Shown: positions 47,045 through 56,877 of the stretch, piece after piece
How the letters are laid out: each line of letters opens with the position of its first letter
Numbering within the stretch: position 1 is the stretch's first letter
NCBI GenBank assembly: GCA_051251855.1
Contig: JBPOGI010000006.1
Span: 64,001-128,000, forward strand
DNA: 64,000 nucleotides
Direction: 5' to 3'
Origin: Roseibacillus sp.
GTDB lineage: Bacteria; Verrucomicrobiota; Verrucomicrobiia; Verrucomicrobiales; Akkermansiaceae
The notes under the pieces: model-generated
Databases searched by the model: none
Told to the model about the DNA's origin: nothing
What the model saw: only the letters and a program-made list of their open reading frames with translations
Position numbers and translations under genes: made by a program

Positions 47045-48114
47045 AACCTGATACCGGAGCCCTCGTTCGAGCCATTGTCTATAGTGTGGCTTTAGTTTAC
47101 TTGTTCGTGGACTTGTTCGTTCTCAAAGGGCCGCTCTATCGAAGTGTGAAAGATGCCAATCCTCGCAGTGAGAAAGTGATTGCTGAGGAAACGGCGCGCG
47201 GAGTGGCGGCACGGGTCCGTTACCAGCCGATTCTCCTCACTCAAATCGACCGTGCGGTGGAAAAGCGGCTGTGGTCTCGTGGTAAAAGCGCGACAGGTTT
47301 GGAGGGAGAGCAGCTCAAGCAAGAACGTATGGCGGCGCTGAACGAGATGTTTCAGAAGCACCTCTTACGCATCAAGGTGAGGTTCAATGCGGCAGAGTTT
47401 CAGGTGAGCGATGAGGAAGTGGCCGCCGCCGTAAAAACGTTCAAAAAACGCTTCGCTAACGAGCAACTTCTCAAGGGAGCGATTGTCAATCAGGGTTGGG
47501 ACGGGGAAGAAGAGTTGGTTGCGCGCATCCGAGCCAAGCTAGAGCAGGAAGCCTATTTGCGGAAATATGTCGCCGTCGAGGTGACTGAGGAAGAGCTCCA
47601 GGCATACTATCAAGAGCATCGAGCTCGTTTCGCTCTCCCGGAAAGAATCCGAGCGAGGCATATCTTTTTTGCGGCGTTGGAGCATCCTGGAGGGGCCGCC
47701 TTGGCTTTGGCTCAGTCGGTTCGAGATGCCTTGCGAGAAGGTCGTGATTTTAACGAACTATCCGCTGAATATAGTGAAGACCCGGCCACCAAGGAGAAGG
47801 GCGGAGAGCTCGGTTGGATGAGTCGAGGCCGAATGCCAGAGGGTTTAGGGGAACAAGTGTTTCAAATGCAGCCTGGGGCGACGGAGGTTTTGGAGTCTGA
47901 TGTGGGGGCTCATGTATTCGAAGTTCAAGAGCGCAAGCCAGCACGCGAGCGAAGTTTCGAAGAGGTCAAAGATGAACTCGAAGAGGCGTTGTCGAATCAG
48001 CGGCGGGAAGAAGGAACGCAACAATACCTGCGAATTCTTCATCATCGTGATGCCAAAGAACTCGAGATATTTACCGAAGTTCTTGAGCGTCCATGGAGTC
48101 TAACAGATTCTTGA
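47041..48114 (+). CDS. PpiC/parvulin-type peptidylprolyl isomerase
   Basis: RARHIF, FNELSAEYSED, GGELGW; N-terminal TM anchor. Confidence 0.88.
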   Translation: MKPDTGALVRAIVYSVALVYLFVDLFVLKGPLYRSVKDANPRSEKVIAEETARGVAARVRYQPILLTQIDRAVEKRLWSRGKSATGLEGEQLKQERMAALNEMFQKHLLRIKVRFNAAEFQVSDEEVAAAVKTFKKRFANEQLLKGAIVNQGWDGEEELVARIRAKLEQEAYLRKYVAVEVTEEELQAYYQEHRARFALPERIRARHIFFAALEHPGGAALALAQSVRDALREGRDFNELSAEYSEDPATKEKGGELGWMSRGRMPEGLGEQVFQMQPGATEVLESDVGAHVFEVQERKPARERSFEEVKDELEEALSNQRREEGTQQYLRILHHRDAKELEIFTEVLERPWSLTDS

Positions 48115-48183
48115 TGCTGGGGTGAGGGGGTGGCATCTCAAGGCAATGATTTTTTCTTAAGACAAAAAAGATGAAGAAAGGGG

Positions 48184-48212
48184 TTGACCCAAATCATATT
48201 AATCTATAACTC
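48184..48212 (+). promoter_or_regulatory. Putative sigma70 promoter of the RNA/tRNA/RtcB unit
   Basis: TTGACC (48184) with TATAACTC at 48205-48212; A/T-rich upstream tract. Confidence 0.55.
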
Positions 48213-48265
48213 TTCTCGAACGCCGCCGCAGGAGCGGTCAAACCAGAAGGAGGGAATTTTCCATC

Positions 48266-48493
48266 ATGAACGATTTAAGCCATATCAAAACCAACTCGCT
48301 CGCAGCGGCCCAAGTGCACTGTTATCGCGGGATGTCCGGTTCGTTGATTGGCGGCATAGATGGCCTCCGGATTCAACCGACAGGGAATGCAAATGCGTTG
48401 AGTGCAAGACTCAGCTGGGAGAATGGCTCCAAAGGGATGCCCGCATTTGGTACCGAACTGAGCGAGAATAAACTGGCAAGCAGGATTACGTAA
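48266..48493 (+). CDS. Putative 75-aa leader (attenuator) peptide
   Basis: AAGGAGG at 48247-48253 before the ATG; stop codon lies within the antiterminator helix. Confidence 0.65.
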   Translation: MNDLSHIKTNSLAAAQVHCYRGMSGSLIGGIDGLRIQPTGNANALSARLSWENGSKGMPAFGTELSENKLASRIT

Positions 48494-48518
48494 ATCACTG
48501 ATTCATAAGGATTTTTAC

Positions 48519-48552
48519 GGCCCTGCTTCCCCCACGGAGGCAGGGCCTTTTT
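48519..48552 (+). terminator. Intrinsic terminator (attenuator)
   Basis: GGCCCTGCTTCC-cccac-GGAGGCAGGGCC-TTTTT. Confidence 0.85.
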
Positions 48553-48779
48553 GTATTTAACCATTTAGAAGAACCGAGAAATTGAAATAAGAACGAGAAA
48601 GGGAGAGCTCACCCAGGTTGTCGCAATTGCGATGACGACCTGCGATGCGCAGACCCTGAAAACGAATTTGAAAGACAGAACCTGAAAAAGAAGAACCGCC
48701 GCCAGCTGTAACTGGCGACGGCTCCGACAGCACCACCGGACGGAATCCGATGAATCAACTGCGCAAGATGATTCTATCT

Positions 48780-49975
48780 AAGATGATGTTTCGGTCAAGA
48801 AAGACTTAACTTCACAGATAAGTGAAGGCAGGGAATTCATGTGCTCATTTTCAGGCCCAAAAGGCTTGTTGGAAGATGTGCCAAAGGAAACATCGAAAGG
48901 TCCGCCGAGAAATCCCCGCGGCCACGGTTCGAGAGAACGGTGACGGTGTTTGTTCCTAGAAAATGAATGGAACAAGGACATTCCTGTCCTTGTTCTATTT
49001 TGGAAGGAGCAGGCCTTTGTGGTTTGCTCCTCTCCAAATCGAAGTTCTCTGGAGTTGGAGCACGTCTTACGTTGAGGCGTCGCATGCTCATGCTCACAGA
49101 GGATTTCGATTTGGAGTTATCTGAATGGCGGTCTGGCGTCATGAGATAGGCGTGTCGAAAGGCACGTAAAGGGGCAGCAACCCTGTCTGCCCGCCTTCTT
49201 CCCTTTGGGGAGAAGGACAACCAGACAAACCTAGTTCCAATGACTTCGCGGCCGGCAGCTGCGGAGTGATGCTGGAAGATGGGAGATGCTCCATTGCGGA
49301 CGGCAAGTGCTCAAGCAATGGTGGGTGTAGCAACCCACAGAGTCTTTACGCCAAACATCGACAGTTGAGAACGAAGGGGAGTCACCGAGTGCGAAGCTTA
49401 GCGGCCAAGAGCCCGGTGGCAGTCCAGTGGTGCGGGAAAGGAGACGAGTCTTTCAAACTCGAAACCTCTCCCTAGTCGCGAAGACCGTAACGTCTGTAGC
49501 AACGGACGGGACAAGAGGCGTGTGGAATTTTGTTGTTGAAAAGGCAACGGACCCACCGGACGCACGCGTCTCATAGAAGGGTATCGGATAGTACGAGAGG
49601 AAATCCACCAGACTTTAGATCTGTTCCAAACGCAAAGATGCGTCCTTGATTGTGTGAAAATGGCTTAAGCCCTGACCAAATTTTGGAATCAGGGTCTGAC
49701 GGGACTCGCAAGGTCCCCGAGGATTGATGGAATGCCGCACGGTGGAGTAGCTCTCCTTCATGGCCCAGCCGGGTCGACGGTAGGTTGAACATCGAGAAGC
49801 ACAGTCAGAAGGGAGTGCCGCCACTTCCTCACCAAAGGCAGTCAGGTAGGAATACAAAGGGTGGGCCTCTAGCGCCCTCCTTTGTGGAAGACTTGGGAAG
49901 GTGAGCCGTCGCTGGCTCGCGATAATCCAAGGCGAGTTCCTATGTGCGAGGGTGTCCTTCTCAACCCTTGCTATC
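48780..49975 (+). ncRNA. Large structured ncRNA, GOLLD-like (5' boundary uncertain)
   Basis: No credible CDS; many hairpins (48966-48999, 49006-49030, 49032-49116, 49151-49166, 49670-49694, 49701-49717, 49854-49885); 3' hairpin 49946-49971 whose loop TTCTCA complements TGAGAA 49366-49371; directly upstream of a tRNA array. Confidence 0.7.
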
Positions 49976-49991
49976 TATTTTCTAACAATGT

Positions 49992-50067
49992 GGGAGCGCA
50001 TGTGCCAGAGGGGCGATGCTGCCTTGCAAGCAGCGTGTGGCGGGTGCAAGTCCCGTCACCTCCACCA
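49992..50067 (+). tRNA. tRNA-Ala(UGC), two acceptor mismatches
   Basis: GCTGC-cttgcaa-GCAGC; G3:U70; T-loop TGCAAGT; CCA. Confidence 0.8.
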
Positions 50068-50075
50068 ATTTTTCT

Positions 50076-50151
50076 AGCGGGGAGAGTGTTGGTATCTCAA
50101 GAGGGTCTCATACGCCCTCGTCCGTGGGTTCGATTCCCACCTCCGCAACCA
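50076..50151 (+). tRNA. tRNA-Met(CAU), initiator-like
   Basis: AGGGT-ctcatac-GCCCT; A1:A72 mismatch; ...CGCAACCA. Confidence 0.8.
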
Positions 50152-50160
50152 TTTCTAAGG

Positions 50161-50234
50161 GGCGCGCAAACATTATGGTGATGTGCCTGACCTCCAATCA
50201 GGAAAACGGAGTTCGAGTCTCCGGCGTGCTACCA
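50161..50234 (+). tRNA. tRNA-Gly(UCC), atypical (C33, A73)
   Basis: CCTGA-cctccaa-TCAGG; TTCGAGT; CCA. Confidence 0.7.
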
Positions 50235-50244
50235 ATTTTTCAAA

Positions 50245-50318
50245 GGTCCATTGATGTAAAAGTAGCCTCCCTGTCTGTCGAACAGGTTGAGCCGGAGCAT
50301 TACCGGCATGGACCGCCA
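50245..50318 (+). tRNA. tRNA-Asp(GUC)
   Basis: GGTCCAT/ATGGACC, G73; CCTGT-ctgtcga-ACAGG; T-loop AGCATTA; CCA. Confidence 0.82.
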
Positions 50319-50327
50319 TTTTCAAGT

Positions 50328-50404
50328 GGGGACCATGGTGTAACGAGTAAGCATCCGGCACTGTGAACGCCGCGGAATGGGTGCAAGTCCCATTGGTCCC
50401 CCCA
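50328..50404 (+). tRNA. tRNA-His(GUG)
   Basis: G-1:C73; loop ctgtgaa; T-loop TGCAAGT; CCA. Confidence 0.88.
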
Positions 50405-50415
50405 ACTTTTGGAAA

Positions 50416-50491
50416 TGTCCTCGACGGAGCTAGTGAACCGGACGGTTTGCAAAACCGATCATGCGGGGGGCGGAACCCCGGAGGACATCCA
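50416..50491 (+). tRNA. tRNA-Cys(GCA)
   Basis: TGTCCTC/GAGGACA, U73; loop ttgcaaa; T-loop GGCGGAA; CCA. Confidence 0.78.
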
Positions 50492-50502
50492 TCTTTCTAA
50501 AT

Positions 50503-50575
50503 TCCAGCGTGGCGGAAAATCGCGCCGCTCTTGTAAAGCGGATGATGCAGGCAACCAGTCCTGTCGCTGGATCCA
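50503..50575 (+). tRNA. tRNA-Thr(UGU), aberrant T-loop
   Basis: TCCAGCG/CGCTGGA; CCGCT-cttgtaa-AGCGG; T-loop CAACCAGT; CCA. Confidence 0.72.
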
Positions 50576-50585
50576 ATTTGACAAT

Positions 50586-50660
50586 TCTTCTGTCGTCCAA
50601 AGGCGAGGACACCAGGCTACGAACCTGGAGATGCGAGTTCGAGTCTCGCCGGAAGTACCA
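50586..50660 (+). tRNA. tRNA-Arg(ACG)
   Basis: CCAGG-ctacgaa-CCTGG; TTCGAGT; CCA. Confidence 0.88.
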
Positions 50661-50673
50661 TTCTCATGAGAAC

Positions 50674-50747
50674 GCGGGCTTGGTGTAAAAGAAGCACATC
50701 TGTTTTACATGCAGATCGAGGGGGTGCGATACCTCCAGCCCGTACCA
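50674..50747 (+). tRNA. tRNA-Val(UAC)
   Basis: GCGGGCT/AGCCCGT; loop tttacat; T-loop TGCGATA; CCA. Confidence 0.82.
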
Positions 50748-50753
50748 ACTTTC

Positions 50754-50841
50754 ACGAAGTGTTCCCACCACGGTCTTCTAAGCCGTCGACGATAAACTGT
50801 GGGCAGGATGTCGAGGGGTTCGAGTCCTCCACTTCGTTCCA
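50754..50841 (+). tRNA. tRNA-Arg(UCU)-like, no D-arm, expanded variable region
   Basis: ACGAAGT/ACTTCGT; ACGGT-cttctaa-GCCGT; TTCGAGT; CCA; only 9 nt between acceptor and anticodon stems. Confidence 0.7.
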
Positions 50842-50846
50842 TTTTT

Positions 50847-50919
50847 GCCTGCGTAGCCCAACGGAAGAGGCGCCCGGCTTAGAACCGGTTCAGTGTGGGT
50901 TCGACTCCCTCCGCAGGTA
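50847..50919 (+). tRNA. tRNA-Leu(UAG), short variable loop, no encoded CCA
   Basis: GCCTGCG/CGCAGGT, A73; loop cttagaa; TTCGACT. Confidence 0.85.
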
Positions 50920-50928
50920 CTTTTCTAA

Positions 50929-51002
50929 TTCCATGTAGCCCAACTGGTAGAGGCTCTCGACTTAAGATCGAGCAAGTGTCAGTTCGACTCTGACCATGGA
51001 AA
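50929..51002 (+). tRNA. tRNA-Leu(UAA), short variable loop, no encoded CCA
   Basis: TTCCATG/CATGGAA, A73; CTCGA-cttaaga-TCGAG; TTCGACT. Confidence 0.85.
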
Positions 51003-51008
51003 TTTTCA

Positions 51009-51095
51009 GGAGTTCGAACCGGACAAGCGAGCCGGTCGCGTTTGCTAAACGCTGAGTTGCCATTTGGTAAAGGGGTGCAAGTCCTCCGAGCTCCG
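51009..51095 (+). tRNA. tRNA-Ser(GCU)
   Basis: GGAGTTC/GAGCTCC, G73; loop ttgctaa; long variable arm; T-loop TGCAAGT; followed by CCG. Confidence 0.82.
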
Positions 51096-51105
51096 CCGTT
51101 TTTTA

Positions 51106-51193
51106 GGAGGGTGCCGCTAAGTGGCTGGCAACTGGTCTTGAAAACCAGGGTAGGCATTGCGTCCTAGGGGTTCGATTCCTCCACCCTCCGCCA
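51106..51193 (+). tRNA. tRNA-Ser(UGA)
   Basis: GGAGGGT/ACCCTCC, G73; CTGGT-cttgaaa-ACCAG; long variable arm; CCA. Confidence 0.9.
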
Positions 51194-51196
51194 ATC

Positions 51197-51271
51197 ATCC
51201 CAGTCGTCTAATTGGTAAGACGCCCCGCGCCGAGCGGGGAGATGCCGCTTCGAAGTCGGCCGGGGAATCCC
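51197..51271 (+). tRNA. Degenerate tRNA-like gene (nominal anticodon CCG)
   Basis: Intact D-arm GTCT/AGAC; CCCCG-cgccgag-CGGGG with G33; two acceptor mismatches; ends TCCC. Confidence 0.55.
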
Positions 51272-51277
51272 TTTTCT

Positions 51278-51352
51278 GGGTCTGTAGCTCAATTGGTAGA
51301 GCAACCGGTTTTTACCCGGTCGATGCGGGTTCGAGACCCGACAGACCCACCA
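51278..51352 (+). tRNA. tRNA-Lys(UUU)
   Basis: GGGTCTG/CAGACCC; ACCGG-tttttac-CCGGT; CCA. Confidence 0.9.
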
Positions 51353-51361
51353 ATTTTCAAC

Positions 51362-51517
51362 GCTCCTGTCAGCTATGGGTAGGCTTTCGCACTTTCACTG
51401 CGGCAAACCGGGTTCGAATGCATTTCTTGGTTACAAGACATTCTGAACATCCAGCTCGGGGCGAGCTGCATACCGCATGGACCTGAAGGATGAAGGTCAA
51501 TCCCGGCAGGAGTACCA
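51362..51517 (+). tRNA. tRNA-Glu(UUC) with 82-nt T-loop insertion
   Basis: GCTCCTG/CAGGAGT-A-CCA; loop ctttcac; T-stem CCGGG (51408-51412) and CCCGG (51502-51506) separated by TTCGAAT plus 82 nt. Confidence 0.85.
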
Positions 51518-51524
51518 ATTTTCT

Positions 51525-51599
51525 CGGGGGGTAGTTCAATGGGAGAACGCGCGCTTTGGAAGCGTGAGGTTGTCGGTTTGAGTCCGGCTCCCCCGACCA
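51525..51599 (+). tRNA. tRNA-Pro(UGG)
   Basis: CGGGGGG/TCCCCCG-A-CCA; loop tttggaa. Confidence 0.9.
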
Positions 51600-51607
51600 C
51601 TTTTAAT

Positions 51608-51768
51608 TCCCGGATAGCTTAATCGGCAGAGCACTCGACTTTGACTCGAGCAGTGTGGGTTCGATTGCCCTCGCTCCGCTCATGCCATGCGATGTCCAGT
51701 TTCCTCCTCCGGAAACTGAGAAATTCGATGCGCATAAATGTGCGGAAGCATTCCCACTCCGGGCACCA
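51608..51768 (+). tRNA. tRNA-Gln(UUG) with 86-nt T-loop insertion
   Basis: TCCCGGA/TCCGGGC-A-CCA; CTCGA-ctttgac-TCGAG; T-stem GTGGG (51655-51659) and CCCAC (51753-51757) separated by TTCGATT plus 86 nt. Confidence 0.85.
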
Positions 51769-51789
51769 ATTTTAACCAAACATGAAACA

Positions 51790-52383
51790 ATGATAACACT
51801 AGTAAAAGCGAAAGACCTTCGCCCCATCTTGGAGACGGAACGTCTTCTCTTGCGTCCCCTTGAAATGAACGATGCTGCCGACGTGCGTCGCCTAGTCGGT
51901 GATATTCGTGTGGCCGAAAATCTAGGGCTTGTTCCGCATCCCTATCCAGAGGGACTGGCGGAAGAATGGATTTCTGGTCAGAGAGCAGAATATGAAGCGG
52001 GTAGGCATCTCACTTTTGCGATTACTACCAAAGCAACTAACGAACTGATGGGAGTAATCAGCCTTCATCCCAAAGAAGATCTTCTTCGCGCGTCAGTTGG
52101 TTACTGGGTTGGCGTTCCCTATTGGGGAAACGGCTACACCACGGAGGCTCTCAAGGAGATGCTCCGATTTGGCTTTGACGACTTTGCCCTGCAAAGAATC
52201 TTCGCTACTCACTTTGTCACCAATCCTGCTTCGGGCCGGGTGATGGAGAAAGTGGGGATGCAGCTCGAAGGCGTGATGAAGCTGGGTATCTCAAGATTTG
52301 GGGTGCTGCGCGACAGTATGCAGCGAGCGATCATCAAACCCGATTGGGAACGCCAGCGACAGGCGGAAGAACTTTACTGCTAG
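51790..52383 (+). CDS. RimJ/RimL-family GNAT N-acetyltransferase
   Basis: LETERLLLRP, VGYW, YWGNGYTTEA, NPASGRVMEKVGM. Confidence 0.92.
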   Translation: MITLVKAKDLRPILETERLLLRPLEMNDAADVRRLVGDIRVAENLGLVPHPYPEGLAEEWISGQRAEYEAGRHLTFAITTKATNELMGVISLHPKEDLLRASVGYWVGVPYWGNGYTTEALKEMLRFGFDDFALQRIFATHFVTNPASGRVMEKVGMQLEGVMKLGISRFGVLRDSMQRAIIKPDWERQRQAEELYC

Positions 52384-52455
52384 ACCGTGTCGTGTGTGAA
52401 AGCGGCGGGTGGGCACTTTGCCAGCCCACTCGCCGCAAACCCATTTAACTTACCA

Positions 52456-53220
52456 ATGAATAAAAATAGAAATGAGCAGAGGCGTTTGAAATCAGAACGT
52501 CTGGAAACGCGAGACAAAGTGATTCTTGCCCTTGAACGAGAGCGCCGAGATTTGTGGAACCAGCTCCGGAAAGCTCCTTTGGAAGAACTGAAGGAGCCTT
52601 ATCAAAAAGGCTGGGAGCGGTTCTTTGTTCTCAGCGAGCAGGCGAAGCGGAGAAAGGATGCCGAGAAGCTAGAATTGGCCCTTTCCCTTATTCGGAATTA
52701 TCAGCGCTGTTCCGTGAATCCATTTCGACACTATCGCTACAAGAGCAAGCGCATGGTGCCATGGGAGCACAATTTGAGTGGATTAAGAGCGAGAGCTTTT
52801 CTATCTCAACGGACTTCCGAGGAGGTCATGCAATACTTTCGAGTGCGTCTGCGTGAGCCTTTGACTCGAGAGCGAGTTCGAGAATTGGTTCGTTCAGGTT
52901 GGCAGGGAAAATTTTGGTTCCGCTACCCTGAGTATGCGGTTTCTCAAGTGCAGCCATTTATGATCACACACTGCCGCGTAGCTTTGCCCGAGGTGGAGAG
53001 CCGCTTGTCTGAAGTAGAGGCGACCCTTCGAAAAGATGGTAACGAATATCGGCTTCGCCATCTCAAGGATTGGGGCTTTAGCTGTTGGCGTCGGATGGAT
53101 GAAAGGGCTCAAGAAATGAAGGAGGTGCCGCTGATTCGGAGAGAGATTGAAGAAGCGATCTTTGACTTCGAAAGTAAGCAGGAGCCTAGCTACTGGTGTC
53201 CCGTTCTTTTTCTCAATTGA
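52456..53220 (+). CDS. Basic (Arg/Lys-rich) hypothetical protein
   Basis: ATG 52456; PYQKGWERFFVL motif; co-oriented within the unit. Confidence 0.75.
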   Translation: MNKNRNEQRRLKSERLETRDKVILALERERRDLWNQLRKAPLEELKEPYQKGWERFFVLSEQAKRRKDAEKLELALSLIRNYQRCSVNPFRHYRYKSKRMVPWEHNLSGLRARAFLSQRTSEEVMQYFRVRLREPLTRERVRELVRSGWQGKFWFRYPEYAVSQVQPFMITHCRVALPEVESRLSEVEATLRKDGNEYRLRHLKDWGFSCWRRMDERAQEMKEVPLIRREIEEAIFDFESKQEPSYWCPVLFLN

Positions 53221-53542
53221 AGGAGAACGCGACGTCAGTGGCTGCGCTGTGAGTTGCAATACCACGCTTTAAACTAGGAACAAACACCAGGGGATTTCGG
53301 CGGAGCTTTCGATGGGTTCTTTGACTCTGAAACGAGCAGTAGAAAACCCAAGAAATGCAGAAGAGAGCAGCATCAGTGAGAAGAAGAATCCGGCATTTAC
53401 TGGAGAAGAAAGAGAAGCAGAAAAAGAAGATTCAACCCGAGTCTCCCCGCGAGAAAACCGACTATGAACAATCGCCAGTGAATCAAATCACGGTGAGGAC
53501 GATAGAGGGTTTTTGGGGACAGCAATAAGAAGAGAAAAAGAG

Positions 53543-54142
53543 ATGAACACCGTAATGAATAAGAGCGTCGTGCTCGTGCTAAACAGGCACTGGCAAGCCG
53601 TCAATGTCACCACCCCCGCGGAGGCCTTTGCTTCCATGATGACCGATGCCGCGACAGGCTTGGATATTCGAGGGGAAGACTGGATGGTTCCGGTGAAGTG
53701 GCAGGATTGGGTCCAGTTGTCTGTTCGAGAAGGAGACTTCTCGGTAGGGACGGTGGACGGTCAGGTGCGCGTTCCGACGGTGATTGTCTTGAGTCGTTTT
53801 GACCGAGTGCCGCGCAAGCGCCTCAGTTTCTCTTTGCGTGGTCTTTGGCTGCGGGATGGGGGACGGTGTCAATATACCGGACGTTCTCTCCGGCCAGAGG
53901 AAGGCAATATCGACCACGTCATTCCTCGCTCGCGCGGGGGAGAGACTTCTTGGGAGAACTGCGTGCTTTCTGACCGCAAGGTGAACAACCGGAAAGCAGA
54001 CCGGACCCCGGAAGAAGCGGGCTTACGCCTGAATTCCGATCCGGTGCGTCCTCCGGAAGTGCCCGTCACCTATTTGCTGCGGAATCCGTTCCAAATTGCA
54101 GATTGGGAGGTCTTCCTCCCTGAACGCTCGGAAGAAAATTGA
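53543..54142 (+). CDS. HNH endonuclease
   Basis: VLVLN; RDGGRCQY; IDHVIPRSRGG.TSWEN; N.RKADRTPEEAG. Confidence 0.92.
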   Translation: MNTVMNKSVVLVLNRHWQAVNVTTPAEAFASMMTDAATGLDIRGEDWMVPVKWQDWVQLSVREGDFSVGTVDGQVRVPTVIVLSRFDRVPRKRLSFSLRGLWLRDGGRCQYTGRSLRPEEGNIDHVIPRSRGGETSWENCVLSDRKVNNRKADRTPEEAGLRLNSDPVRPPEVPVTYLLRNPFQIADWEVFLPERSEEN

Positions 54143-54224
54143 TAAAATCTCGACCAACTTCAAGGCAAGTGGACCTGCAGGGAATTCCCGGAACGGTCTC
54201 CACGCATCGGCTCGATGGTCGAAC

Positions 54225-54290
54225 TCTGAAGTAGCTCAGATGGTAGAGCAACGAACTCATAATTCGTCGGTCACGGGTTCGATCCCCGTC
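54225..54290 (+). pseudogene. tRNA(CAU) fragment lacking the 3' acceptor strand
   Basis: D-arm GCTC/GAGC, ACGAA-ctcataa-TTCGT, ACGGG-TTCGATC-CCCGT, then CTAACAAAAC, which does not pair with TCTGAAG. Confidence 0.7.
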
Positions 54291-54299
54291 TAACAAAAC

Positions 54300-54437
54300 A
54301 AGCCCCTTTCGCTCCAGATTGCTTCGGCAGTCAGCTCGAACTTGGCCCAGCGAATCACGCCGCTCCTCAGTCCCGAATGTTTCCGGATGAGTGACGCGAT
54401 GATTCCCGCCGGGAAAGAGTGGAGTGGGGGAGGCTTA
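54300..54437 (+). ncRNA. Candidate structured RNA
   Basis: AAGCCCCTTTCGCTCCA pairs with TGGAGTGGGGGGAGGCTT; internal GATTGC-TTCG-GCAGTC hairpin. Confidence 0.45.
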
Positions 54438-54469
54438 CAAATTTAACCCCAAAGAAAGAAAAAGAAGAA

Positions 54470-55237
54470 ATGAATGAATGGATGATCGTAGCAGTGGTTG
54501 TCGCAGTGGCGGCCGCTCTTGGAATGGTGAAAGTGATCCTAGGCAACCGCCAGAAGGTGATCGTGAATAGTTTTGAGAAGGCCCTCATGTTCTACAATGG
54601 CAAGTTGGTGAAAGAGCTGGAAGCGGGTGAGACCGTTTTCTGGGGTCAAGGATACGAAGTGAAACGTGTCGATGGCCGTTGGCAGGAGTTGGTGGTGCAA
54701 AGCCAAGAATTCCTGACCGCCGACCGAGCTTCCGTGAAGGTGAGCGGAGTGGTGCGTTTTCGCGTGGCGGATGCGCTGAAGTATTTCGGCGAATCCCAAG
54801 CGCCTCTCGTGACCGTTCATACCGCGACTCAGATGGCACTGCGTGATGTGGTGGGAAGTCTGGGCGTGGAAGCGGTGCTGGAGCGTCAAGACGGTCTCGG
54901 TGATCGAATGAAGGCTCTGGTTGCGGCCCCAGCGGAAGCTCTTGGAATCGAAGTCAACGCTGTCGTGGCGCGTGACCTGATGCTCGCCGGTGACCTGAAG
55001 AAGGCCTACCAGGCGACTTTGAGCGCGAAACAAGAAGCTCTCGCAGGACTTGAAAAGGCCCGTGGCGAGGCGGCTGCTATACGTGTGAAAGCGAATGCTG
55101 CCCGGGTTTACGAAAAGAACCCTGCCTTGCTGCAACTCGAAGCTCTCGAGACCGTGGCGAAGCTGGGGGACGGAATGAACAACCATCTGGTGCTTGGATC
55201 ACTCGATTCCTTGCTGAAGATGGTGAAAACTGAATGA
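54470..55237 (+). CDS. SPFH/band-7 (slipin-like) protein
   Basis: N-terminal TM; QEFLTAD, LRDVVG, RDLML, LEKARGEAAAIR..ANAA, NPALLQL. Confidence 0.9.
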   Translation: MNEWMIVAVVVAVAAALGMVKVILGNRQKVIVNSFEKALMFYNGKLVKELEAGETVFWGQGYEVKRVDGRWQELVVQSQEFLTADRASVKVSGVVRFRVADALKYFGESQAPLVTVHTATQMALRDVVGSLGVEAVLERQDGLGDRMKALVAAPAEALGIEVNAVVARDLMLAGDLKKAYQATLSAKQEALAGLEKARGEAAAIRVKANAARVYEKNPALLQLEALETVAKLGDGMNNHLVLGSLDSLLKMVKTE

Positions 55238-55302
55238 TAGAAAAACTGGGGACGCCTCGCCGTGAATGCTGCGGGGCGTCCCTTACAAACTTTTGAAAAA
55301 CA

Positions 55303-56877
55303 ATGAGCCTGATTGGACAGGAAGAATTAATTGAAGCGGGTTGGGAACCTGGTCCGCACTTTGGAGAGATGATCGTGAAGCTGCGTGAATATGAAGAGCG
55401 TGGTATTTGCGATAAGAAGTATTTGCTCAAGCTGTTAGCGAAGGACTTTGGGGAACCAGAGCCTAAGTTGGCGATGCGTCCTGCGCCGGTGAAGTGCGCG
55501 GAAGCGATTCGTCCCGAGAACGATGAGGAGAAGGAGAATGTGTCGAGAGTTCGTCAGAAGATGAGCGAGCTCTTGAAGGTTCCCGTGATTTCTCAAGGGG
55601 CGGTGATGCCCGATGCGTGTCCGGCGGGAATGCATGAAGCGACCATTCCGGTGGGCGGGGCCATTGCGGTGGAAAATGCGATCATTCCAAGCGCGCATTC
55701 AGCGGATGTTTGCTGCTCCATGTTTGCCTCTTTCTACGTGGAACGCAGTAGTGTCGCCAGCGAGCTGGATGCTTTGACGGCGGCGACTCGTTTCGGTCCC
55801 GGTGGTCGTCACTATGACCACTTGGTGGAGCATACCGTGAATGAGGAAGACTTTTGGTCGAATCCGTTTTTGAGCGGGTTGAAGGACTACGGACGCATTC
55901 ACATGGCTGACCAAGGGGACGGGAATCACTTTGCCTACTTGGGTGAAGTCGAGGTGACCTCTGATGTTGTGAGCAAGCTGCACTTGGCTGGATATGGCGC
56001 GCTTGCGGATCAGCTTTCGGGTTCTGGAGAGAATCAAGAGACGCTGCGTCTTCGCGTTCTGGTGACTCATCATGGGTCGCGAGGATTGGGAGCGCATCTC
56101 TATAAGCGAGGTCAAAAGGCGGCTTTGAAGCAAACCGACAAGGCAGCGCGAGGGGTTCCTTCGGCAGCGGCGTGGTTGGATGCGCGCAGTGATGACGGCC
56201 GTGCTTATTGGGAGGCTTTGCAATATGTGGGTCTTTGGACTCGTGCCAACCACGAGGCTATCCATGAGCGTTTCTTGAACAACATCGGAGCGGAAAAGCT
56301 GGCGAGCTTTGGCAATGAACATAACTTCGTGTGGAAGCGTGGGGATGTCTTCATGCATGGCAAGGGAGCGACTCCAGCTTGGAAAGACTCCGATGGGCGT
56401 CCGCTGTTAGGATTGATTCCGCTCAATATGGCGGAGCCGATTCTGATGGTGCTGGGCGGCGACCAGAGCGAGTTCCTTTCCTTTGCTCCTCACGGTGCCG
56501 GCCGAAATGTTTCCCGAACCAAGTTGCGTGGTCGTTACGGCGACGAGGCCACTCGTCAGAATGTGATTGCGCATCATACCCGGGACATCGACGTGCGCTG
56601 GTATTGTGGTAAGGCGGACCTGAGCGAAACTCCGGTGGCCTACAAAAATGCCGACCAGGTGAAGGCGCAGATTCAGGAATTCGGCCTCGCGGAAATCGTG
56701 GCTGAGATTCGTCCTCTGGGATGCATCATGGCCGGCGAGAGCCCTCGGATGGATTGGAAGAAGTATCGCAAGGAGCAGTTAAGTCCGAAGCAGAAGCGTC
56801 AGATTCAGCATCGTGCGGAGCGACGTAAGACCAAGCAAGGTCTCGGGAATTGGGACGAGCCCGATTCCTTAGATTGA
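55303..56877 (+). CDS. rtcB: RtcB-family RNA ligase
   Basis: MPDAC, ADVCCS, GDGNHF, HHGSRG, HNF, KGATP, HGAGR, ETP.AYK. Confidence 0.93.
   Translation: MSLIGQEELIEAGWEPGPHFGEMIVKLREYEERGICDKKYLLKLLAKDFGEPEPKLAMRPAPVKCAEAIRPENDEEKENVSRVRQKMSELLKVPVISQGAVMPDACPAGMHEATIPVGGAIAVENAIIPSAHSADVCCSMFASFYVERSSVASELDALTAATRFGPGGRHYDHLVEHTVNEEDFWSNPFLSGLKDYGRIHMADQGDGNHFAYLGEVEVTSDVVSKLHLAGYGALADQLSGSGENQETLRLRVLVTHHGSRGLGAHLYKRGQKAALKQTDKAARGVPSAAAWLDARSDDGRAYWEALQYVGLWTRANHEAIHERFLNNIGAEKLASFGNEHNFVWKRGDVFMHGKGATPAWKDSDGRPLLGLIPLNMAEPILMVLGGDQSEFLSFAPHGAGRNVSRTKLRGRYGDEATRQNVIAHHTRDIDVRWYCGKADLSETPVAYKNADQVKAQIQEFGLAEIVAEIRPLGCIMAGESPRMDWKKYRKEQLSPKQKRQIQHRAERRKTKQGLGNWDEPDSLD

What the first reader, a model, noticed from the sequence alone, without database searches (positions are those of the whole stretch)
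48600..49975. ~1.2-1.4 kb ornate non-coding RNA, GOLLD-like but unusually long
Seen: dense hairpins with G-U pairs and GNRA loops, and long-range complements TGAGAA 49366/TTCTCA 49958, GGATT 49721/AATCC 49924 and GATGTTTC/GAAACATC (~48785/48887). By recollection the 3' half (GGACTCGCAAGGTCC..GGATTGA, GAGTAG, AAAGGCAGT, terminal CTCA loop) resembles the GOLLD 3' domain. Known: GOLLD is typically ~800 nt and of unknown function. Inference: an expanded GOLLD variant or new large RNA in a non-phage, RtcB-linked setting.
Basis: partly seen in the sequence, partly recalled or inferred. Interest (0 to 1): 0.78.

Follow-up and report, generated by a model that had tools for sequence, protein, structure and literature searches.

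The report
Ordinary-size GOLLD RNA heading tRNA island
The stretch is not one giant RNA but a normal-sized (about 845 bases) member of the known GOLLD family of cage-forming RNAs, sitting behind two separate smaller conserved RNA elements at the head of a spare-tRNA and RNA-repair gene island in a Verrucomicrobiales bacterium.

Summary
The 1.4 kb non-coding stretch is composite. Window 49124-49967 (+), about 845 nt, is a GOLLD RNA of ordinary size. Rfam's GOLLD model matches 49513-49967 end to end (116.3 bits, E 2.3e-31), below the 150-bit cut-off; an orthologue in a sister genus scores 153.1. Ten orthologues share 234 predicted pairs, 124 with compensatory changes. The 5' 500 nt is not GOLLD. 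It holds a minus-strand small RNA gene (about 48684-48798: sigma-70-type promoter, terminator with minus-strand wobble pairs). It also holds a conserved 116-nt plus-strand structured motif (48849-48964), a multicopy REP-like hairpin (48966-48996) and lineage-specific hairpins. Two same-genus relatives keep the upstream elements and the tRNA array but lack GOLLD. The 116-nt motif occurs once per genome in 60 of 151 genomes of the order; GOLLD in 7 of 151 of the family. The setting is chromosomal: motif, optional GOLLD, at least 10 redundant divergent tRNAs, GNAT, HNH, SPFH, RtcB. This resembles known long tRNA arrays with HNH and rtcB. Verdict: a new member of a known kind. "Unusually long" is not supported; "non-phage, RtcB-linked" is. 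The 116-nt leader motif matches no Rfam family and is the most novel piece.

The parts
48519..48547 (+). Intrinsic-terminator-like hairpin plus T run that ends the upstream unit (75-aa ORF 48266-48493). It marks the left edge of the non-coding stretch.
   Evidence: 12 pairs, 9 GC, T run. The hairpin is conserved in relatives in the alignment.
48684..48798 (-). Small RNA gene on the minus strand. The -35 box TTGACC is at 48798-48793 and the -10 box TAGAAT at 48776-48771. The transcript is about 48764-48684 (about 80 nt) and the terminator hairpin is 48725-48692 plus a T run.
   Evidence: Promoter and terminator scan. TTGAC-type box, N16-18, TAnnnT on the minus strand in 27 of 37 homologous sequences, one of them (L098) at a doubtful place, followed by a hairpin plus T tract. 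The hairpin has 39 C.A cells (G.U on the minus strand) against 7 G.U cells on the plus strand, in 30 sequences x 12 pairs. The minus-strand fold is -42 kcal/mol, z -5.70, 0 of 200 shuffles. Weak Rfam ctRNA_pGA1 match at 30.2 bits, under its cut-off of 45.
48849..48964 (+). Conserved 116-nt structured motif at the head of the tRNA array ('array-leader motif'). P1 is 48875-48879 with 48890-48894; P2 is 48902-48905 with 48918-48921; P3 is 48923-48928 with 48937-48942. An alternative helix P4 is 48889-48895 with 48944-48950.
   Evidence: Alignment A2 of 36 sequences. 94.6% of cells paired, 8 of 15 pairs with changes on both sides, 0 of 500 shuffles reach the covariation score. P4 is 94% paired but with one-sided changes only. 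RNAalifold gives -14.3 on the plus strand against -5.4 on the minus strand. Model R1 finds one copy each in 60 of 151 genomes of the order. No Rfam family matches it at E up to 10.
48966..48996 (.). REP-like palindromic hairpin, a multicopy element inserted between the leader motif and GOLLD.
   Evidence: 15 blastn hits in the genome including this copy. It is absent at this place in G004, whose flanks are 85% identical.
49000..49123 (+). Lineage-specific spacer hairpins. The 49035-49123 hairpin is kept, with compensatory changes, in the GOLLD-less relative G002.
   Evidence: Alignment. There is no cross-genus homology here.
49124..49512 (+). GOLLD 5' domain (about 390 nt). The start is uncertain by about 6 nt; conservation begins at 49126.
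   Evidence: The cross-genus blastn block starts at 49110-49126. Alignment A3 and RNAalifold show covarying helices throughout columns 45-450. Contigs in RNA libraries start at 49120, 49132 and 49146.
49513..49967 (+). GOLLD 3' domain. It includes the variable linker (about 49575-49627) and a hairpin at 49744-49756 whose loop holds the palindrome AGCU (inferred to be L21a).
   Evidence: Rfam RF02032 at 116.3 bits, E 2.3e-31, model 1-416 of 416. Covariation in A3. 49583-49627 is replaced by 83-84 other letters in relatives' contigs. 5 of 10 orthologues carry a tRNA-like insert in the linker.
49988..51678 (+). Accessory tRNA array: 10 tRNAs called by ARAGORN (50076-51599), plus further tRNA-like sequences.
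   Evidence: All 10 anticodons also occur elsewhere in the genome, and the array copies are only 57-76% identical to those.
51655..56877 (+). Island genes downstream: GNAT acetyltransferase (51655-52383), unknown 277-aa protein (52387-53220), HNH endonuclease (53513-54142), tRNA-like (54230-54291), SPFH/Band 7 (54419-55237), RtcB RNA ligase (55303-56877).
   Evidence: Pfam, PHROGs and NCBIfam. Synteny in relatives.

Best explanation
The locus is composite. Window about 49124-49967 (+) encodes a GOLLD-family RNA of normal size, about 845 nt: a 5' domain of about 390 nt plus the conserved 3' domain of 455 nt. By homology with the solved env-38 GOLLD it most likely assembles into an RNA-only multimeric cage, with its variable linker pointing inwards (inferred, not shown here). 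It lies in a chromosomal island with this order: divergent small RNA gene; conserved 116-nt plus-strand leader motif; optional GOLLD; array of redundant, divergent tRNAs; GNAT; unknown protein; HNH endonuclease; SPFH protein; RtcB ligase. GOLLD is probably made as part of, or processed from, the same plus-strand transcript as the tRNA array. This is inferred from three things: no promoter-like site was found between the leader motif and the array, all elements have the same orientation, and the spacing is tight. GOLLD is an optional passenger of an accessory tRNA supply and repair module, because close relatives have lost it while keeping everything else.
For: GOLLD identity. The Rfam model matches full length at E 2.3e-31. 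Orthologues occur in 7 of 151 genomes of the family (4 of 20 genera) and score 98-153 bits, one over the cut-off. They align with the window at 65-70% identity over 49110/49126-49969. There are 234 consensus pairs, 124 with compensatory change. The fold has z -3.98. Five of 10 orthologues carry a tRNA-like insert in the linker, a feature published for GOLLD (Kretsch 2025). The loop at 49748-49752 and its homologues always hold a self-complementary dinucleotide (GC, CG or AU), and 6 of 10 hold a 4-nt palindrome (read). This fits the published symmetric kissing loop L21a.

Composite nature. G005 has the upstream motif followed 30 nt later by tRNA-Met. G002 has the motif plus the spacer hairpin and then the array, with only about 9 nt of the GOLLD start left. 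In 80 HNH-anchored loci, the upstream unit is found in 28 and GOLLD in 4. tRNAs follow in 27 of those 28. The motif occurs as one copy in 60 of 151 genomes of the order. The small RNA gene is on the minus strand. A REP-like insertion separates the units.

Expression hint. Contigs 90-99% alike in RNA libraries of two studies (X3 and X5 of P2, X7 of P3), and in one library only guessed to be RNA (X1), cover 49120-49859.

Island. The flanks are housekeeping genes kept in synteny within the genus.
Against: The window's own Rfam score (116.3) is below the curated 150 bits. No strand-specific or end-mapping RNA data exist, and contigs cannot show strand, ends or level. The plus-strand promoter was not found, so co-transcription with the array is inference. 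The 5' domain could not be compared with published GOLLD 5' domains, because Rfam models only the 3' domain. Cage formation, and any link to tRNA damage, is inferred from homology and neighbourhood only. Kin are not independent, so the covariation counts overstate the number of events.
Confidence: 0.82

Rival explanations
1. One expanded GOLLD variant, or a new large RNA of 1.2-1.4 kb spanning 48600-49975.
For: The whole stretch lacks long ORFs. The upstream motif and GOLLD are on the same strand and adjacent in every GOLLD-bearing locus where upstream sequence is held. GOLLD 5' domains are known to vary.
Against: The upstream unit persists without GOLLD in G002 and G005 and in 25 of the 28 unit-bearing HNH loci. 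It is far more widespread than GOLLD: 60 of 151 genomes of the order against 7 of 151 of the family. Part of it is a minus-strand gene. A mobile REP-like hairpin and non-conserved spacer lie in between. The RNA-library contigs that were laid begin at 49120-49146.
Confidence: 0.04
2. The GOLLD-like block is a decaying remnant that no longer functions, which would explain the sub-threshold Rfam score.
For: The score is under the gathering cut-off. GOLLD has been lost in close relatives. The distribution is sporadic.
Against: The full model length is matched. 124 pairs keep pairing through double changes across at least 5 genera. The terminal loop and many junction columns are invariant. Near-identical sequences are present in RNA libraries. 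Five of the six other orthologues in the family search also score below the cut-off (98-140 bits), which points to a divergent lineage and not to decay.
Confidence: 0.06
3. For the 116-nt upstream motif, the two readings are these. (a) It is a cis-acting leader or switch that controls read-through into GOLLD and the tRNA array, possibly together with the divergent small RNA. (b) It is an independent small stable RNA, or only a protein-binding promoter region.
For: For (a): the motif always lies upstream of a tRNA array and in its orientation (27 of 28 loci; 8 of 11). There is one copy per genome. The segment 48889-48895 can pair either with 48875-48879 (P1, compensatory changes) or with 48944-48950 (P4, kept through G.U only). 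For (b): 31 columns are invariant and 10 more are at least 90% conserved, and no promoter was found upstream.
Against: No ligand, terminator or transcript end is known. The U-rich tail seen in most relatives is not kept in this genus. The single-sequence fold is not better than shuffles (z -1.23). Likeness of its 3' end to the rRNA-leader boxA of relatives is weak.
Confidence: 0.45

Closest known systems
GOLLD RNA (Rfam RF02032; env-38 GOLLD solved by cryo-EM, Kretsch et al. 2025, PMC12286853, passages read)
   Same: Full-length match to the 3'-domain model. Size about 845 nt against 833 nt. Two-domain layout with a variable linker, and tRNA inserts in the linker of some orthologues. It lies next to a tRNA island with tRNA-Met nearby. 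A loop holds a self-complementary dinucleotide, like L21a.
   Different: The score is under Rfam's cut-off. The host is a Verrucomicrobiales chromosome with no phage genes nearby. It is embedded in a locus that keeps its position and flanking genes within the genus, with HNH and RtcB. No paper in the searched library joins 'GOLLD RNA' with 'Verrucomicrobi'.
Mycobacterial tRNA array units carrying GOLLD and an HNH endonuclease (Behra et al. 2019, PMC6582537, passages read; Morgado and Vicente 2018, PMC5966550, listing only)
   Same: GOLLD lies inside or beside a large accessory tRNA cluster together with an HNH endonuclease. The setting is non-phage, chromosomal or plasmid.
   Different: The phylum differs. 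Here GOLLD sits at the head of the array behind a conserved leader motif, and RtcB and an SPFH protein are part of the island.
Long tRNA arrays (L-arrays) of cyanobacteria with a neighbouring homing endonuclease and co-regulated rtcB (Santamaria-Gomez et al. 2021, PMC8421152, passages read)
   Same: Supernumerary, redundant tRNAs in one orientation, with an HNH-type endonuclease and RtcB in the neighbourhood. A role in translational stress and tRNA repair has been proposed.
   Different: No GOLLD is mentioned in that paper (0 occurrences). Regulation there is by direct repeats and a repressor, whereas here there is a conserved structured RNA motif and a divergent small RNA. Here the island lies next to MutY in two families of the order, which suggests long residence.
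ROOL RNA
   Same: A large ornate cage-forming RNA near tRNA islands.
   Different: No ROOL match at E up to 10 in 48100-50400.
Plasmid counter-transcribed RNAs (Rfam ctRNA_pGA1)
   Same: The minus-strand small RNA has two hairpins and a U tail, and it lies divergent from or antisense to the leader of the downstream unit.
   Different: Only 30.2 bits against a cut-off of 45. There is no replicon context. The likeness is generic.

Membership tests
GOLLD RNA (RF02032) | Statistically significant, end-to-end match to the covariance model of the conserved 3' domain | tested here: met
   E 2.3e-31, model 1-416 of 416, window 49513-49967.
GOLLD RNA (RF02032) | Reaches Rfam's curated gathering score (150 bits). 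This is an operational cut-off, not a biological feature. | tested here: not met
   116.3 bits. Orthologues in the same family score 98.4-153.1 bits, and one of 7 passes. Homology to the passing one is shown by 65.5% identity over about 1,030 nt of the window (1,097 alignment columns).
GOLLD RNA (RF02032) | Conserved secondary structure of the 3' domain, including the long-range helix that encloses most of it | tested here: met
   RNAalifold on 10 orthologues recovers the helix at columns 623-632 with 781-790, with double changes in 8 of its 9 pairs, as well as the terminal hairpins. The cmscan alignment marks few non-standard pairs.
GOLLD RNA (RF02032) | Large, less conserved, structured 5' domain, for a total length of about 800 nt or more | tested here: met
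   About 390 nt (49124-49512) with covarying helices. Total about 845 nt. Its likeness to published 5' domains was not testable (no model or sequence at hand).
GOLLD RNA (RF02032) | Variable linker that sometimes holds a tRNA; location beside tRNA genes | tested here: met
   The linker at 49583-49627 is replaced in relatives. There is a tRNA-like insert in 5 of 10 orthologues. The tRNA array starts about 20-110 nt downstream.
GOLLD RNA (RF02032) | Symmetric intermolecular kissing loop (L21a) with a self-complementary dinucleotide | tested here: inconclusive
   The loop of hairpin 49744-49756 reads UAGCU. Homologues hold GC, CG or AU centres. The mapping to L21a rests on my conversion of env-38 numbering (656-657) to model positions.
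GOLLD RNA (RF02032) | Assembly into a homo-14-mer cage | not testable with these tools
   Needs in-vitro RNA and mass photometry or cryo-EM.
GOLLD RNA (RF02032) | Phage or prophage context (usual, not defining) | tested here: not met
   No phage structural genes among the island proteins. The flanks are housekeeping genes in conserved synteny. No DNA match in 50,697 phage records.
Long accessory tRNA array (L-array / tRNA array unit) | Many tRNA genes in one orientation, densely packed, redundant with the housekeeping set | tested here: met
   10 called tRNAs plus tRNA-like sequences in 1.7 kb. All 10 anticodons are duplicated elsewhere, at 57-76% identity.
Long accessory tRNA array (L-array / tRNA array unit) | Sporadic distribution that indicates horizontal transfer | tested here: inconclusive
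   The tRNA content varies between relatives. But the island keeps the same flanks within the genus, and MutY lies upstream in a second family.
ROOL RNA | Match to the Rfam model | tested here: not met
   No match at E up to 10.
ctRNA_pGA1 | Match over the gathering score; replicon context | tested here: not met
   30.2 bits against 45. The context is chromosomal.

The most novel reading that the evidence does not exclude
The 116-nt motif (48849-48964), single-copy and conserved across the order, may be a new class of cis-regulatory RNA. It could act together with the divergent small RNA to switch on a chromosomal 'spare tRNA, GOLLD cage and RtcB repair' module. In that case GOLLD here would work for the cell, not for a phage, for instance by caging or shielding tRNAs during tRNA-damage or translational stress. 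The natural GOLLD-plus and GOLLD-minus sister genomes would then offer a direct genetic handle on GOLLD's unknown function.
Probability: 0.25. Interest if true: 0.8.

Novelty: new member of a known kind. Interest (0 to 1): 0.5.

Why it matters
GOLLD's function is still unknown although its cage structure has been solved. This locus places a typical GOLLD in a non-phage, positionally conserved chromosomal island with spare tRNAs, an HNH endonuclease and the RNA ligase RtcB. Sister genomes have precisely lost GOLLD. This is a natural comparison for asking what the RNA contributes. The report also separates out a previously unmodelled structured motif that heads such arrays in 60 of the 151 Verrucomicrobiales genomes sampled, and a divergent small RNA. 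Both are candidates for the regulation of accessory tRNA arrays.

Tried and rejected
- The Rfam gathering-level scan found nothing in the stretch; the permissive scan was needed.
- The DNA search of phage records with the GOLLD block found no match.
- The 16S rRNA gene is not assembled in this genome. I therefore compared the rRNA leaders of relatives with the motif's 3' end, as a test of a boxA-like antitermination site. Only a short shared word was found (GTTCC or TTCTTT type), which I judged inconclusive. The 13-nt pattern from the motif's 3' end is not enriched in the genome: 7 hits against 9 for the control.
- No plus-strand sigma-70-type promoter was found in 48000-51800. Between the minus-strand promoter and the motif, 24 sequences were examined and 1 had a hit, while 13 could not be anchored.
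- A terminator reading of P4 plus the U tail was dropped, because the U tail is not kept in this genus.
- A coding reading of the upstream unit (minus-strand ORF 48778-48981) was rejected. Relatives differ there by 1-nt and 4-nt indels, and the start lies in the REP insertion that G004 lacks.
- RNA-library contigs gave no cover over 48200-49046 or most of the tRNA array. The runs held only small shares of the words (0.06-0.20), and the contigs are from relatives.
- Weinberg 2009 could not be read. What I say of it comes from citations in Kretsch 2025.
- Earlier findings of this scan returned nothing.

Full report
1. What is in the stretch

Between the terminator-like hairpin at 48519-48547 and the first called tRNA at 50076 there is no long ORF. 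The largest overlapping ORF is 127 aa, on the minus strand. Rfam at gathering level reports only tRNAs in the window: 9 matches, none in 48600-49975. A permissive scan of 48100-50400 gives one strong match. GOLLD (RF02032) matches at 49513-49967 on the plus strand with 116.3 bits and E 2.3e-31, covering model positions 1-416 of 416. The family's gathering score is 150. The same is found in the whole genome, as its only match. No ROOL match appears at E up to 10.

2. Extent of the GOLLD RNA

A DNA search of 41 related genomes, followed by blastn, shows that cross-genus homology (65-70% identity) covers only window 49110/49126-49969. Rfam's GOLLD model finds orthologues in 7 of 151 genomes of the family (4 of 20 genera), scoring 98.4-153.1 bits. 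One of them is over the cut-off.

An alignment of 10 orthologues (A3) shows conservation beginning at window 49126 and ending at 49967. RNAalifold predicts 234 pairs across both halves, and 124 of them keep pairing through changes on both sides in at least one sequence. The block folds better than shuffles (z -3.98, 0 of 20).

Five of the 10 orthologues carry a tRNA-like insert in the linker. The window has a short linker. In contigs of relatives, 49583-49627 is replaced by 83-84 other letters.

The RNA is thus about 845 nt, with a 5' domain of about 390 nt and a 3' domain of 455 nt. The solved env-38 GOLLD has 833 nt, with a 5' domain at 1-420 and a 3' domain at 421-833. [quoted passage not shown] The window's GOLLD is not unusually long.

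The strings exist at the stated places, but none of them is supported as a pair.
- Three bases of TGAGAA pair with columns 155-157 of A3, with covariation.
- GGATT and AATCC each belong to other covarying helices.
- GATGTTTC at 48785 is not conserved, and its proposed partner pairs elsewhere.

4. The upstream 500 nt are separate units

(a) Same-genus genomes G002 and G005 keep window 48674-48965 (G005: 48841-48960) at 80-83% identity and then run into the tRNA array. In G005 the gap to tRNA-Met is 30 nt. G002 keeps the spacer hairpin and about 9 nt of the GOLLD start, which looks like a deletion scar.

(b) I anchored on the island's HNH protein (alignment A1). The genome collection gave 552 relatives, and the best 80 loci are, by their record titles, nearly all Verrucomicrobiota (two titles name no taxon). 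In these 80 loci nhmmer finds the upstream unit in 28, always in the orientation of the array. It finds GOLLD in 4. tRNAs follow the unit in 27 of the 28.

(c) The core of the unit (window 48849-48964) was aligned from 36 sequences (A2). It forms three helices on the plus strand.
- 94.6% of cells are paired, and 8 of 15 pairs have changes on both sides.
- 0 of 500 shuffles reach the covariation score, and slid controls give 25-52% paired.
- RNAalifold favours the plus strand, -14.3 against -5.4.
- The segment 48889-48895 can alternatively pair with 48944-48950. That helix is 94% paired but shows one-sided changes only, and it is the minimum-energy fold in this genome (z only -1.23).
- A covariance model (R1) finds exactly one copy in 60 of 151 genomes of the order (21 of 39 genera), at 72-119 bits apart from one weak match at 29.9 bits.
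- Outside the order, R1 finds it in 2 of 150 other genomes drawn across the phylum, both weak.
- In 8 of the 11 further loci held with 1.5-kb flanks, tRNAs lie downstream.
- No Rfam family matches the motif.

(d) Left of the motif lies a minus-strand gene.
- TTGACC, 16 nt, TAGAAT is at 48798-48771, and a 15-pair hairpin with a T run is at 48725-48692.
- The promoter pattern recurs in 27 of 37 homologous sequences, one of them doubtful.
- rRNA promoters of relatives have the same TTGAC(C/G), N17, TAG-type form (my reading).
- The hairpin's mismatches are C.A on the plus strand (39 cells) far more often than G.U (7 cells), in 30 sequences x 12 pairs. The hairpin therefore pairs as minus-strand RNA.
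- The 81-nt minus-strand RNA folds with z -5.70.
- Rfam's ctRNA_pGA1 matches it only weakly, 30.2 bits against 45.

(e) 48966-48996 is a REP-like hairpin with 15 blastn hits in the genome including itself. It is absent at this place in G004.

5. Setting

The array holds 10 ARAGORN-called tRNAs and further tRNA-like sequences. All 10 anticodons also occur elsewhere among the genome's 50 called tRNAs. The array copies are 57-76% identical to those and most show an encoded CCA end in the alignments.

Downstream lie a GNAT acetyltransferase, an unknown 277-aa protein, an HNH endonuclease, an SPFH/Band 7 protein and RtcB. No phage structural gene is present, and the flanks (MutY-like, AhpC, aminotransferase, PPIase; sulfatase) are kept in the genus. 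HNH and RtcB accompany the array in G002, G004, G005 and G098. HNH accompanies it in G160. There is no DNA match in the phage collection.

Such arrangements are known.
- Mycobacterial tRNA clusters carry GOLLD and an HNH endonuclease (Behra 2019, passages).
- Cyanobacterial long arrays have a neighbouring homing endonuclease and co-regulated rtcB, and are induced under translational stress (Santamaria-Gomez 2021, passages; GOLLD is not mentioned there).
- No paper in the searched library holds both 'GOLLD RNA' and 'Verrucomicrobi'. Weinberg 2009 was not readable.

6. Expression hint

One search found 8 runs holding small shares of the stretch. Contigs of four of them were laid. X3 and X5 are transcriptomic libraries of study P2, X7 is metatranscriptomic (study P3), and X1 is only guessed to be RNA. 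The contigs are 90-99% alike and cover 49120-49859, starting at 49120, 49132 and 49146. They come from relatives, and they show neither strand nor level.

7. Mechanism

Shown: the RNA is a GOLLD homologue with conserved structure, an optional component of an accessory tRNA array island, and preceded by separate conserved elements.

Inferred:
- Cage assembly, by homology with env-38.
- An inward-facing linker.
- A loop at 49748-49752 (UAGCU; GC, CG or AU centres in all 10 orthologues, 4-nt palindromes in 6 of 10, read) that acts as the symmetric kissing loop L21a. The mapping is by my conversion of numbering.
- Co-transcription with the array.
- A role in tRNA supply or protection under stress. 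I give this about 0.3.

8. Verdict

This is a new member of a known kind. The 'expanded GOLLD' reading is rejected and the RtcB-linked, non-phage context is confirmed. The 116-nt leader motif and the divergent small RNA are the unmodelled pieces worth following up.

Noticed in passing
window 49988-50067, 50240-50325, 50410-50585, 50753-50838: The gaps of the tRNA array hold tRNA-like sequences that ARAGORN does not call. By eye, several have acceptor-like ends followed by CCA. Rfam gives only weak matches there: tRNA-Sec model 25.5 bits at 50753-50838, and Tymo_tRNA-like and tmRNA matches at 49948-50096.
   Followed up: partly
window 50847-50920 and 50929-51002: Both array 'tRNA-Leu' genes are 74 nt and lack the long variable arm that the housekeeping tRNA-Leu copies have (gaps in the alignment). 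That is unusual for bacterial tRNA-Leu.
   Followed up: no
window 54230-54291: A tRNA match (50.9 bits, model 6-65 of 71) lies between the HNH and SPFH genes. Relatives often have a tRNA at the same place (L035, L040, L060, L065, L098).
   Followed up: partly
window 52387-53220: A 277-aa protein with no Pfam, PHROGs or NCBIfam family is kept in the island in several genera, at 29-58% identity.
   Followed up: no
window 48966-48996 and 14 other places in the genome: A short palindromic REP-like element is multicopy in G000 and G004.
   Followed up: partly
L006 (G002) about 1340-1500: In the GOLLD-less relative, about 9 nt identical to the GOLLD start remain before the array. This suggests loss by deletion, not primary absence.
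   Followed up: partly
window 1-64000: GC skew is positive in every 1-kb bin of the window, up to 0.41.
   Followed up: no
L096, L105, L106, L110: In the Prosthecobacter-type loci the HNH gene is duplicated in tandem. In L096 and L105 a distant RtcB relative (28-29% identity) lies upstream of it instead of downstream.
   Followed up: no
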